Of a stretch of DNA of 5,558 nt, positions 1 to 2,252 are shown in pieces (position 1 is the first letter of the stretch; each line of letters begins with the position of its first letter). The translations under genes were made by a program, and so were the position numbers. The DNA is from a virus (lineage: Duplodnaviria; Heunggongvirae; Uroviricota; Caudoviricetes): positions 1 to 5,558 of the IMG/VR virus record IMGVR_UViG_2711768068_000018; one strand, written 5' to 3'. The notes under the pieces were generated by a model that was not told the DNA's origin, ran no database searches, and was given only the letters and a program-made list of their open reading frames with translations.

Positions 1-152
1 ACCCAGACACGCAGAGTCTCCGGCGTACAGCCAATCTTTGGAGCAATGGAACAAATTGTCGCCCATTGTGAGTCATATTCGCCCTGACTTTCCAGAACCA
101 TACGGGCTGCCCGTTGACGGACTTCAGGGGAAAAACGAGTATTTTTAGTCAT
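1..152 (-). CDS. IS3-family transposase OrfA, N-terminal part (partial, runs off window)
   Basis: Hand translation of the reverse strand from ATG at 152-150: [50 protein letters not shown]..., matching the recalled N-terminus of IS629/IS1203-type OrfA (HTH region). A GAGG-type RBS lies upstream on the minus strand (gagaaagaggtaaacagg before ATG). Not in the ORF track because it has no stop within the window. Confidence 0.8.
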
Positions 153-340: not shown

Positions 341-475
341 CAAAAGGATAGTTGGATTTCACATGATACTTATATCTGGCAGTACATTTTCTGACAGACA
401 GTGACGGGGGGTGTCAAGATATTGTGTCATTTATAACCTGAGTCAGGGGGGGCCCCTATTAAGTTGTCAAGCATG

Positions 476-1672
476 TTATGACGCCTGCGGGGTATAAAAA
501 GTCCCGTCGCGCATCATGGCGAACAGAACGTCGCAGCGTCGTCTCGCCAGGGCGATAAGCGCCTGATTGTGTCGTTTTCCCTGACTCATTTTGCGGGTGT
601 AGTAAGCCCTGGAGAGCGGATCCCTGAGCGCGGCGAAGGCCGACAGGAACAACGCCCGTTTGAGAGCTTTATTACCCCGTCGCGAGGGATGCTCACCGCG
701 TATTGACGAGCCGGATCGCCGAGTTACCGGCGCAAGGCCAGCATAAGCAGCGAGATGTGCGGCAGAGGCGAAGGCGCGGCAGGCGACCTCGGTGAGGAGT
801 CTGGCTGCGGTCCTGACACCGACTCCGGGCATACTGGTCAGGACCGGGTAAAGAGGGTGAGCAAGAACTCGCTGTTCTACCTCAAGCGCCACCTCGTCTC
901 TTTGCTTACGCAGCGTGATGAGCTGGAGTGCCAGACGTGGCAGTACTACGGCAGCGGCATTCGTGCCGGGAACGACGACGGTTTGTTCGGCCAGTGCCTG
1001 AGCTATGTCTGCTGCAAGGCGTTTACCCAGACGAGGCGCAAGTTTGCAGAGCTGGGCTGCCAGCTTCTTCTCACCCAGCGAAGCGAGTTTTTCTGGTGAG
1101 GGATATCGCTGGAGAAGATCGAGTACCGCCGGGTGATCAAGTCTCGGACCGAGAACGCGCTCCAGTGCCGGATGTATCTGGGTCAGAAGGCCGCGGATAC
1201 GGTTGCTGGCCTGCGTTGTCTGTGCGGCAAGATCATCATCGAAGCCGCAGAGCATGGAGAGTTCGGCGATTTGCTCGTCAGCCAGTTTCAGCGTGCGTAG
1301 CGCGTGAGGCAGGGTACGGGCAGCTTCGGCAATGATGGCAGCGTCACGAGCATCAGTTTTAGCTTCACCGGCGTGTAAGTCGGCTATGCGGCGCATGGCC
1401 AGTCCAGGGAGGTATCCGACAAGGACTCCTTCTGAGCGGGCAACGGCGACAGGTAACGCACCGATGGTAGCTGGCTGATCAACAACCAGCAGTATCTGAC
1501 CATGTTGTTTCAGGTCAGATATTAGCGACCTGAGTTTGTTTTCGTCGTTGGGTAATGCTTTATCGAACAGGCGTTTACCTGAACGATTAATGGCTACAGC
1601 GTGATGCGTATCTTTACCGACATCAACGCCGATAAAGACCTGGACGGATTCGTAATCGCTGGATTCGGTCAT
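476..1672 (-). CDS. IS110-family transposase / DEDD-type recombinase
   Basis: 398-aa ORF. N-terminal VFIGVDVGKDTHHAVAI is the hallmark first Asp motif of the RuvC-like DEDD domain of IS110-family transposases; the C-terminal region has YAGLAPVTRRSGSS, the conserved Ser-containing motif of the family's Tnp domain. AGGGAG Shine-Dalgarno 6 nt upstream of the ATG on the minus strand (1673-1690). Confidence 0.9.
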   Translation of the reverse strand: MTESSDYESVQVFIGVDVGKDTHHAVAINRSGKRLFDKALPNDENKLRSLISDLKQHGQILLVVDQPATIGALPVAVARSEGVLVGYLPGLAMRRIADLHAGEAKTDARDAAIIAEAARTLPHALRTLKLADEQIAELSMLCGFDDDLAAQTTQASNRIRGLLTQIHPALERVLGPRLDHPAVLDLLQRYPSPEKLASLGEKKLAAQLCKLAPRLGKRLAADIAQALAEQTVVVPGTNAAAVVLPRLALQLITLRKQRDEVALEVEQRVLAHPLYPVLTSMPGVGVRTAARLLTEVACRAFASAAHLAAYAGLAPVTRRSGSSIRGEHPSRRGNKALKRALFLSAFAALRDPLSRAYYTRKMSQGKRHNQALIALARRRCDVLFAMMRDGTFYTPQAS

Positions 1673-1689
1673 TCTGTCTCCCTTGTATA

Positions 1690-1870
1690 TGGGTTAACCA
1701 GATAACCACGGGGAGCAGGTACCGGCATCCACGTTACAGACGGTCCCGGCAAAAGTGCCTGACCTGACCCCTATTAGCGGTTACCAGCGCCCCACCAGAC
1801 CCGGTGACATCACCCCCCGGATCATGGACGACTGGGGGCAGTAATCATGCCGGGTCTGGCTGGCTAACAC
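1690..1870 (-). ncRNA. Candidate bridge RNA (IS110-type guide RNA) in the 5' leader of the IS110-family recombinase; hypothetical
   Basis: About 180-200 nt GC-rich non-coding leader between the putative -10 (minus strand TATAAT at 1879-1874) and the recombinase RBS, with no plausible ORF. In the IS110 subgroup (e.g. IS621) the bridge RNA is encoded in exactly this position. Structure not verified by eye. Confidence 0.25.
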
Positions 1871-1965
1871 CCCATTATAAGGGGTACGAATAAAGTAACG
1901 GGGCCGGAATGTTATCTGGCATTTTTAGCAGAGCCTGAATGCCATAATCACGGCTCCCGGCGTTG

Positions 1966-1999
1966 GCCGTCAGTGGGTGACACTGGCGGCTTTTTGTTT
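1966..1999 (+). terminator. Strong intrinsic terminator, tR'-like, upstream of the lysis genes
   Basis: 10-bp stem 1966-1975 (GCCGTCAGTG) / 1981-1990 (CACTGGCGGC, one G-U pair), 5-nt loop GGTGA, followed by TTTTTGTTTT (1991-2000). Its position just before the holin gene matches lambdoid tR' at the end of the short late leader (6S) transcript. Confidence 0.6.
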
Positions 2000-2045
2000 T
2001 CCTTTACTTTCATTTTCTGTCGGCGGTGACGGAGACATACATCAG

Positions 2046-2252
2046 ATGGAAAAAATCACAACGGGTGTGTCATACACCACGTCAGCGGTGGGGACGGGAT
2101 ACTGGCTACTGCAGTTGCTGGACAAAGTCTCTCCGTCCCAGTGGGTGGCAATAGGTGTACTGGGGAGTCTGCTGTTTGGCCTGCTGACGTATCTGACTAA
2201 CCTGTATTTCAAAATCAGGGAGGACCGCCGTAAGACGGCGCGGGGGGAGTAA
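2046..2252 (+). CDS. Holin, phage-21 S-like class II pinholin (68 aa)
   Basis: Translation [68 protein letters not shown] closely resembles recalled phage 21 S68 / E. coli EssD-type holins. Two TMDs (Gly/Ala-rich TMD1, hydrophobic TMD2) and a charged C-tail. The ORF-track start at 1977 is a GTG inside the terminator loop; ATG 2046 with a GGAGA Shine-Dalgarno (2030-2034) is the likely true start. Confidence 0.85.

What the first reader, a model, noticed from the sequence alone, without database searches (positions are those of the whole stretch)
1673..1895. Candidate bridge RNA in the 5' leader of an IS110-family element
The IS110-family recombinase gene (476-1672, minus) is preceded by about 200 nt of GC-rich leader with no coding potential. 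In the IS110 subgroup (IS621 is the studied example) this leader encodes a structured bridge RNA whose two loops specify target and donor DNA. If this leader folds that way, its loops would define the element's target site. I have not verified the fold.
Basis: partly seen in the sequence, partly recalled or inferred. Interest (0 to 1): 0.6.

Follow-up and report, generated by a model that had tools for sequence, protein, structure and literature searches.

The report
Bridge RNA of insertion sequence ISEc20
The 227-base leader upstream of this ISEc20 transposase gene has the conserved two-loop fold of an IS110-type bridge RNA, with one loop matching the element's own ends and the other matching the runs of C it inserts into; a published survey had already predicted a bridge RNA here, so this is a sound but ordinary annotation.

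Summary
The observation and the interpretation both hold. The element is ISEc20, IS110 group. Its body is 451-1899, with a CCCC copy on each side at 447-450 and 1900-1903, and it sits in a C/G run 142 nt upstream of a P21-type prophage holin gene. The leader (1673-1899, minus strand) has no ORF of 30 aa or more. Across 52 non-redundant leaders from Enterobacteria, Burkholderiales and Microbacteriaceae it folds into a 5' hairpin plus two stem/internal-loop/hairpin domains. Of 40 pairs, 94.8% of cells are paired, 21 pairs show compensatory changes, and 0 of 500 shuffles match this. A covariance model built without any E. coli copy hits 1708-1868(-) at 154 bits.

Loop 1 carries CUGCCCCC and GGGGGG. 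Fifty-six distinct ISEc20 insertion sites show a target of about (C/G)CCCCCC. Loop 2 carries AUAGGGGU, identical to the right-end sequence; a G/A change there is matched in both places in 13 A-type elements from two lineages. It also carries GUAACGUGG, complementary to CC(C)CGTTAC at the left end.

Durrant et al. 2024 (Supplementary Table 5) already list the ISSfl4/ISEc20 cluster as "bridge RNA: LE". Expression was not tested. What differs from IS621: the target is a homopolymer, the target guides are self-complementary, and the left donor guide stops 1-2 nt short of the crossover.

The parts
451..1899 (-). ISEc20 element body (left end GTTAC... to right end ...ATAGGGGCC)
   Evidence: Ends defined by 8 different insertion sites and 2 tandem junctions and by 56 distinct sites; 99.9% identical to annotated ISEc20.
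1900..1903 (-). CCCC copy on the left-end side; it contains the crossover (core) dinucleotide
   Evidence: CCCC precedes GTTAC in 53-56 of 56 sites. The same CCCC joins right end to left end in tandem copies.
447..450 (-). CCCC copy on the right-end side, followed by one more C (446) from the target
476..1672 (-). IS110-family DEDD/Ser recombinase gene (398 aa)
451..475 (-). Right end (25 nt). ATAGGGGCC (459-451) is the left-donor sequence. TTGACA at 470-465 is a candidate -35 of a circle-junction promoter.
   Evidence: TTGAC(A/G) lies 14-15 nt from the C-run in nearly all homologues. The motif is identical to the loop-2 motif.
1673..1899 (-). Left end / leader, non-coding; encodes the bridge RNA
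1869..1885 (-). 5' hairpin ACCCC-UUAUAAU-GGGGU
   Evidence: Three of 5 pairs show compensatory changes. It occupies the same position as the 5' stem-loop of IS621.
1794..1860 (-). Target-binding domain: outer stem 1860-1850/1804-1794, UGAU/GUCA 1847-1844/1808-1805, inner hairpin 1832-1821
   Evidence: Helix 2 is 99% paired and 6 pairs show compensatory changes.
1834..1841 (-). Left target guide CUGCCCCC (5' side of loop 1)
   Evidence: It has the same sense as the target top strand (C-Y-G)CCCC. In the 15 sites with G at -5, position -7 is C in 11. This copy's flank is CGGCCCC.
1811..1818 (-). Right target guide GGGGGG, plus UG (3' side of loop 1)
   Evidence: Six conserved C follow GGGGCA at right-end junctions. 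UG is complementary to the CA that precedes the C-run in the donor, which makes it a possible handshake guide (inference).
1711..1792 (-). Donor-binding domain: outer stem 1792-1778/1724-1711, inner hairpin 1764-1742
   Evidence: In helix 4, 8 of 12 pairs show compensatory changes; helices 5 and 6 also covary.
1766..1776 (-). Left donor guide UAAUAGGGGUC (core part AUAGGGGU, 1774-1767)
   Evidence: Identical to the right-end TAATAGGGG(C/T)C. The G/A at position 7 is matched between loop and right end: 13 A-A, 53 G-G, no A-G.
1729..1737 (-). Right donor guide GUAACGUGG
   Evidence: Invariant in 52 leaders. It is the reverse complement of CC(C)CGTTAC, that is core plus left-end terminus. CGTTAC recurs at atypical right-end junctions.

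Best explanation
The leader of this ISEc20 copy encodes an IS110-group bridge RNA of roughly 160-175 nt, about 1885 to 1711 on the minus strand. By analogy with IS621, it would be made mainly from the excised circular form and bound by the ISEc20 recombinase. Its first internal loop would hold the target: CUGCCCCC pairs with the bottom strand and GGGGGG with the top strand of a run of 6-7 C. [quoted passage not shown] Strand exchange would occur at a CC inside the CCCC shared by donor and target. Shown here: the fold, its covariation, the loop-to-end and loop-to-target matches, and the natural target motif. Inferred: transcription, protein binding, the exact core dinucleotide, and the chemistry.
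For: Identity and family. Long left end and short right end. Published covariance-model scan places a bridge RNA in the left end of the ISSfl4/ISEc20 cluster. Fold: the consensus of 52 non-redundant leaders and the tested structure give 40 pairs, 94.8% of cells paired, 21 pairs and 149 cells with compensatory changes, and 0/500 shuffles reaching the observed values; slid controls give 27-50% paired and covariation of at most 0.10 against 0.294. Leave-out test: a model built from 30 non-Escherichia leaders hits window 1708-1868(-) full length at 154 bits, E about 1e-32. Donor loop: AUAGGG(G/A)Y in the loop tracks ATAGGG(G/A)C in the right end, with 13 A-A and 53 G-G pairs, no A-G, and the one A-type leader paired with GGGGT resting on a misdetected right end. 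The A state occurs in two lineages, Duganella-type and Pseudoclavibacter-type. In 24 cases the loop has U where the DNA has C, as expected for G.U pairing to the bottom strand. GUAACGUGG is invariant and complementary to the left-end terminus plus core. Target loop: 56 distinct sites give (C/G)CCCC before the left end and 6 C after GGGGCA. Homologues in other phyla show the same junctions. An unoccupied homologue of this site has a G7/C7 run. Segment order and lengths parallel IS621: guide, 2-nt linker, 22-23-nt hairpin, linker, 9-nt guide.
Against: There is no transcript evidence. No sigma-70-like promoter passed the scan in the window or across a tandem right-end/left-end junction. My model does not detect the IS621 bridge RNA, so the homology of the RNAs rests on architecture, on the recombinase, and on the published scan. 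CCCCC and GGGGGG are invariant and mutually complementary, so covariation cannot tell guides from an ordinary stem. The left donor guide ends 1-2 nt before the CCCC, whereas in IS621 it reaches the first core base. The target-side guides never vary in this clade, so guide-target covariation could not be tested.
Confidence: 0.88

Rival explanations
1. The leader is only a structured 5' UTR that controls translation or stability of the transposase mRNA. It has no guide function, and the C-run preference is set by the protein.
For: The structure lies directly upstream of the ribosome-binding site. No separate promoter or terminator was found. The C5/G6 segments could simply be a stem.
Against: The unpaired loop sequences are identical or complementary to both element ends. 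One position changes in step with the right end in two lineages. The loop-1 segments equal the natural target. The architecture parallels IS621 segment by segment. The published scan calls it a bridge RNA.
Confidence: 0.05
2. The internal copies of ATAGGGG and GTAACG act at the DNA level as subterminal recombinase-binding repeats, not as RNA guides.
For: The same motifs occur at the ends and inside the left end. Many transposons carry subterminal binding repeats (general knowledge).
Against: The motifs sit in the loops of a structure whose stems keep pairing through G-U pairs and compensatory changes, which signals selection on RNA. The 24 U-for-C differences fit RNA-DNA wobble. IS110 recombinases are shown to use RNA guides.
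Confidence: 0.05
3. The element belongs to the IS1111 subgroup and its guide RNA is encoded 3' of the transposase gene.
For: None found.
Against: Only 25 nt lie between the stop codon and the element end. The element is listed as IS110 group with the RNA in the left end.
Confidence: 0.01

Closest known systems
IS621 bridge RNA (Durrant et al. 2024, PMC11208160; Hiraizumi et al. 2024, PMC11208158)
   Same: It is encoded in the left end upstream of a DEDD/Ser IS110 recombinase. It has a 5' hairpin followed by a target-binding and then a donor-binding domain, each built as stem / 5' guide / hairpin / 3' guide / stem. The 5' guides have the sense of the top strand and the 3' guides are complementary to it. 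The right donor guide has an interruption in its pairing. There is a -35-like hexamer in the right end 13-15 nt from the core.
   Different: The recombinase is 398 aa against 326 aa and is alignable mainly in the C-terminal domain (36% identity over 117 aa). There is no detectable RNA sequence similarity. The target is a C6-7 homopolymer rather than an 11-nt REP sequence. Donor and target share CCCC, so the core dinucleotide cannot be placed from sequence. The target guides are invariant across three bacterial groups and complementary to each other (5-6 G-C pairs). The left donor guide stops 1-2 nt short of the crossover region.
ISSfl4/ISEc20 entry in Durrant et al. 2024, Supplementary Table 5
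   Same: This is the same element cluster. The table records 'Detected Bridge RNA End: LE; group IS110'.
   Different: The table gives only the location call. In the literature held here I found no description of guides, fold or target for this cluster.
IS1111-group seekRNA / 3'-encoded bridge RNA (e.g. IS4321, IS5075)
   Same: Same recombinase family and the same two-guide logic.
   Different: In that group the RNA lies in a long right end and there are long subterminal inverted repeats. Here the right end is 25 nt.

Membership tests
IS110 family, IS110 subgroup | DEDD (RuvC-like) N-terminal domain plus Tnp domain with a conserved catalytic Ser | tested here: met
   PF01548 and PF02371; NF033542 at 239 bits against a cutoff of 140; D17, D65, the KTDARD aspartates and the RRSGSS serine align with the IS621 catalytic residues.
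IS110 family, IS110 subgroup | Long left end, short right end, short core repeated at both junctions, no long terminal inverted repeats | tested here: met
   Left end 227 nt, right end 25 nt, CCCC at both junctions; listed as IS110 group.
IS110-group bridge RNA | Structured RNA in the left end with two internal-loop domains, supported by covariation | tested here: met
   40 pairs, 21 with compensatory changes, 0/500 shuffles; leave-out covariance model hit at 154 bits.
IS110-group bridge RNA | Donor-binding loop: the 5' guide matches the right-end (left donor) top strand and the 3' guide is complementary to the core plus left-end terminus | tested here: met
   AUAGGGGU equals ATAGGGGC with a matched G/A change; GUAACGUGG pairs with CC(C)CGTTAC. 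Departure from IS621: the 5' guide does not reach the core.
[quoted passage not shown]
   CUGCCCCC and GGGGGG against the target (C/G)CCCCCC from 56 sites. The guides are invariant, so there is no guide-target covariation.
IS110-group bridge RNA | Detected by the published bridge-RNA covariance models | not testable with these tools
   The models are not available here. The authors' own scan reports 'LE' for this cluster. Rfam 15 has no such family: it also misses the IS621 bridge RNA.
IS110-group bridge RNA | Expressed as a non-coding RNA and bound by the recombinase; the loops programme recombination | not testable with these tools
   This needs RNA-seq, binding assays and recombination assays.
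IS1111 subgroup | Long right end encoding the RNA; subterminal inverted repeats of 7-17 bp | tested here: not met
   The right end is 25 nt.

The most novel reading that the evidence does not exclude
The ISEc20 clade may use a distinct variant of the bridge RNA. Its target code would be frozen (C5/G6 guides invariant from Enterobacteria to Microbacteriaceae) and would recognise only a 6-7-nt homopolymer. Its two target guides would pair with each other in the free RNA, which could make the loop self-closing or auto-inhibited. Its left donor guide would be displaced 2 nt away from the crossover compared with IS621. The recurrent right-end-CGTTAC junctions would then be natural products of donor-loop-only ('half-match') recombination that delete adjacent DNA.
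Probability: 0.3. Interest if true: 0.45.

Novelty: already known. Interest (0 to 1): 0.25.

Why it matters
ISEc20 is one of the commonest IS110-family elements in E. coli and Shigella; about a third of complete E. coli genomes have a match, and it often sits in prophages and plasmids. Knowing its guides explains where it lands (runs of C/G) and allows correct annotation of its 227-nt leader, which RefSeq sometimes annotates as 'hypothetical protein'. For bridge-recombinase engineering it is a second, distantly related E. coli system with a different recombinase size and guide geometry. The concept itself, and the presence of a bridge RNA in this element, were already published.

Tried and rejected
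1. Rfam scan of the window gave no hit. I rejected this as evidence because Rfam also misses the validated IS621 bridge RNA.

2. I searched IS621 with my clade model and got no hit. RNA homology to IS621 cannot be shown by sequence here.

3. I considered the core as 'CA' (the two bases before CCCC), by length analogy with the 8-nt left donor guide of IS621. Rejected for two reasons. The two bases before CCCC at left-end junctions are not conserved. The model also predicts 6 C rather than the observed 4 between the flank and GTTAC in this copy.

4. I considered the core as 'AC' with heteroduplex segregation. Rejected: G at target position -5 never appears at right-end junctions, and copies with CC at the right end have G, not A, at the left-end side.

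5. I asked whether the CA/CC/TC polymorphism next to the right end comes from the target. Probably not: there is no correlation with the left flank, and the two CC copies checked are among the 99.5%-identity hits.

6. Sigma-70 promoter scans of the window and of tandem junctions found nothing under the tool's criteria. The conserved TTGAC(A/G) in the right end is 18-21 nt from the nearest -10-like hexamers, so the junction promoter stays unproven.

7. Which CC within CCCC is the core could not be resolved. Taking the first CC fits six G pairing with six C, plus a UG-CA handshake. Taking the last CC fits the IS621 lengths (4-nt guide, 2-nt handshake, 4-nt linker UGAU).

Full report
WHAT IS THERE. 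The window is a 5558-bp metagenome contig; it reappears reverse-complemented as locus L156, OLSH01002605.1. It carries the lysis region of a P21-type lambdoid prophage: holin, DUF1327, lysozyme, an antirepressor-like gene, Rz/Rz1 and an HNH gene. The 398-aa ORF at 476-1672(-) has the two Pfam domains of IS110 transposases. It matches NCBIfam 'IS110 family RNA-guided transposase' at 239 bits. Its only relatives with solved structures are the IS621 and ISCro4 transposases. The IS621 catalytic residues D11, E60, D102, D105 and S241 align with D17, D65, the two Asp of KTDARD and the Ser of RRSGSS. The DNA is 99.9% identical to copies that RefSeq annotates as ISEc20, and 1980 of 5426 complete E. 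coli genomes have a match.

BOUNDARIES. Eight copies in different contexts plus two tandem junctions give the following, in the orientation of the transposase gene: flank-CCCC-GTTACTTTATTC...CTTAATAGGGGC(A/C)-CCCC-C-flank. In window coordinates the body is 451-1899, with CCCC at 1900-1903 and 447-450. Joining the two flanks in silico gives a sequence that is uninterrupted in about 690 E. coli genomes. One of these has a run of seven G at the exact site. The right end is 25 nt. This is the IS110-subgroup layout and excludes the IS1111 layout. The leader is 56% GC and has no ORF of 30 aa or more.

PRIOR KNOWLEDGE. Durrant et al. 2024 scanned all ISfinder IS110-family elements with bridge-RNA covariance models. 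Their Supplementary Table 5 has the row 'ISSfl4 | Detected Bridge RNA End: LE | IS110 | clustered: ISEc20;ISSfl4'. Full-text searches for ISEc20 and ISSfl4 found no paper describing its guides, fold or target. Rfam 15 gives no hit in the window. It also gives none on a locus holding the validated IS621 bridge RNA, so the Rfam result carries no information.

THE FOLD. A genome-collection search returned 80 loci encoding relatives of the transposase at 73-99% identity. They come from E. coli/Shigella, Burkholderiales (Paraburkholderia, Duganella, Trinickia, Cupriavidus and others) and Microbacteriaceae (Microbacterium, Pseudoclavibacter, Cryobacterium and others). Their leaders align over their whole length.

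RNAalifold on 52 non-redundant leaders, and a count on the structure I derived from it, support a 5' hairpin followed by two domains. Each domain has an outer stem, an internal loop and an inner hairpin:
- 5' hairpin: 1885-1869.
- Domain 1: outer stems 1860-1850/1804-1794 and 1847-1844/1808-1805; inner hairpin 1832-1821.
- Domain 2: outer stem 1792-1778/1724-1711; inner hairpin 1764-1742.

Of 40 pairs, 94.8% of cells form standard pairs. Twenty-one pairs (149 cells) show changes on both sides. None of 500 shuffles reaches any observed measure. Sliding the partners by 1-3 columns drops pairing to 27-50% and the covariation score from 0.294 to at most 0.10.

As an independent test I built a covariance model from 30 leaders, none from Escherichia or its close relative L039. 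It finds window 1708-1868(-) end to end at 154 bits, E about 1e-32. The only other hit with E below 1 is 21.7 bits on the opposite strand of the same palindromic stem.

THE LOOPS. The loop segments are the most conserved part of the leader.

Loop 2, 5' side. This side reads CUAAUAGGGGUCA. The right end reads CTTAATAGGGGC(A/C). Across the clade the shared part is AUAGGG(G/A)Y in the RNA and ATAGGG(G/A)C in the right end. The G/A position always agrees: 13 A-A and 53 G-G, with no A-G combination. The single A-type leader paired with a GGGGT right end rests on a misdetected right end. The A state occurs in both a betaproteobacterial and an actinobacterial sub-lineage. In 24 cases the RNA has U where the DNA top strand has C, which is what G.U pairing with the bottom strand allows.

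Loop 2, 3' side. This side holds GUAACGUGG, invariant in all 52 leaders. It is the reverse complement of CC(C)CGTTAC, that is the CCCC plus the first five bases of the left end, with one U opposite a C.

These two segments correspond in position, sense and length to the left and right donor guides of IS621. There the left donor guide is 8 nt, followed by a 2-nt linker, a 22-nt hairpin and a 2-nt linker, then a 9-nt right donor guide with flipped-out bases.

Loop 1. The 5' side carries UACUGCCCCCA and the 3' side carries CCGGGGGGUGAU.

THE TARGET. Exact-match scans with the left-end terminus in viral and metagenome contigs, added to the loci already held, gave 56 distinct ISEc20 insertion sites. 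Before the left end the flank is CCCC (53-56 of 56 at each position), preceded by C (33) or G (15), with no information further out. After ...ATAGGGGCA there are six conserved C and then nothing. The target is therefore about (C/G)CCCCCC. Where G precedes the run, the two bases before it tend to be C-Y (11/15 and 10/15), matching CUG of the 5' guide. Relatives in other phyla show the same junctions. This matches CUGCCCCC (same sense as the top strand, so it pairs with the bottom strand) and GGGGGG (complementary to the top strand). That is the arrangement of the left and right target guides. This copy's own flanks, CGG-CCCC on one side and CCCC-C on the other, fit.

WHAT REMAINS UNCERTAIN. Donor (A-CCCC-G) and target (S-CCCC-CC) share four C, so the two-base core cannot be placed from sequence.
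- If the core is the first CC: the six G pair with the core plus four C. The following UG is complementary to the donor's CA, a plausible 'handshake guide' in the sense of Hiraizumi et al..
- If the core is the last CC: the segment lengths copy IS621 exactly (4-nt guide, 2-nt handshake, 4-nt linker UGAU against UUAU).
- Placing the core on 'CA' or 'AC' is excluded by the junction data (see Tried and rejected).

In every register the left donor guide ends 1-2 nt (first CC) or more before the core. In IS621 it pairs with the first core base. In this window's copy the right end reads GGGGCC instead of GGGGCA, which extends the complementarity to 11 nt (one G.U) right up to the C-run. C5 and G6 can also pair with each other, as the MFE and consensus folds predict. 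Because both are invariant, covariation cannot say whether they form a stem in the free RNA. My clade model does not detect the IS621 RNA. No promoter passed the scan, although TTGAC(A/G) is conserved in the right end 14-15 nt from the C-run in nearly all homologues. That placement is close to the IS621 -35 box, about 13 nt from its core by my count on the published IS621 sequence. No expression data are available.

SIDE OBSERVATIONS THAT BEAR ON MECHANISM. Six of 39 ISEc20 right-end junctions, and one in a Cupriavidus relative, read GGGGCA-CGTTAC (CGTTAT in one) followed by unrelated sequence, instead of a C-run. CGTTAC is exactly the stretch that pairs contiguously with GUAACG of the right donor guide. 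In the one case examined (L015), the two flanks lie about 580 bp apart in other E. coli genomes. The ancestral left site is a C-run (TTTCCCCCTCCCCC). The ancestral right site is CCGCGTTAC, which matches GUAACGUGG at 9 of 9 with one G.U. This looks like an adjacent deletion made by recombination between the right end and a pseudo left end. It is consistent with the donor-only 'half-match' recombination described in two 2026 preprints. Tandem arrays of two or three ISEc20 copies joined by ...GGGGC(A)-CCCC-GTTAC... also occur.

VERDICT. It is a known kind of feature, already predicted for this very element cluster. The guide assignments, the homopolymer target and the geometric differences from IS621 are useful detail but not a new category. 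Interest is 0.25.

Noticed in passing
L015, L016, L091, L099, L114, L132, L186 (ISEc20 copies) and L054 (Cupriavidus relative), at the right-end junctions: In 6 of 39 distinct ISEc20 sites the right end is followed by CGTTAC (CGTTAT in one) plus unrelated sequence instead of the usual C-run. This mimics the element's own left-end terminus and matches GUAACG of the right donor guide. In L015 it goes with a deletion of about 580 bp (ibsA and the start of mdtA) relative to other E. coli. The ancestral site CCGCGTTAC matches the guide at 9/9 with one G.U. This looks like donor-loop-only ('half-match') recombination.
   Followed up: partly
L007 (plasmid pO177B1) and L008 (E. coli SMN197SH3 chromosome): Two or three ISEc20 copies lie head to tail, joined by ...ATAGGGGC(A)-CCCC-GTTAC..., which is the predicted circle-junction (donor) sequence. 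One junction lacks the A.
   Followed up: no
window 451-452, and the same position in other copies: The two bases between GGGG and the C-run at the right end vary among ISEc20 copies: CA in most, CC here and in L003/L004, TC in L005. CC and TC extend the match to the left donor guide (GGGGUC) up to the C-run. There is no correlation with the left flank.
   Followed up: partly
window 465-470 (minus strand TTGACA), and the right ends of L017-L083: TTGAC(A/G) is conserved 14-15 nt from the C-run in nearly all relatives, downstream of the stop codon. It is a candidate -35 box of a promoter formed across the circle junction, but the nearest -10-like hexamers (GTTACT, TACTWT) are 18-21 nt away and the promoter scan found nothing.
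   Followed up: partly
L017-L088: Near-identical element architecture and guide sequences, with transposases 73-82% identical, occur in Enterobacteria, many Burkholderiales and many Microbacteriaceae (Actinobacteria). This implies transfer across phyla with the target and donor code kept unchanged.
   Followed up: no
L004 1560-1790 and L007 1639-1785 (RefSeq annotation): Some RefSeq records annotate 'hypothetical protein' CDSs on the transposase strand inside the ISEc20 leader. They overlap the covarying RNA structure and are probably spurious.
   Followed up: no
window 1903-2046: The element sits 142 nt upstream of the P21-type holin start (2046), in the opposite orientation to the lysis genes. 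It lies next to a terminator-like hairpin on the + strand (1903-1920 plus a T-run). It may affect late-gene transcription of the prophage.
   Followed up: no
window 3-152 (minus strand) and about 150-215: An IS3-family transposase gene starts here (HTH_Tnp_1, weak Pfam hit) and runs off the left edge of the window. This is a second insertion sequence in the same prophage region.
   Followed up: no
window 1786-1876 (+ strand): The covariance model gives a weak secondary hit (21.7 bits) on the opposite strand of the target-binding domain, because the long outer stem and the C5/G6 segments are nearly palindromic.
   Followed up: no
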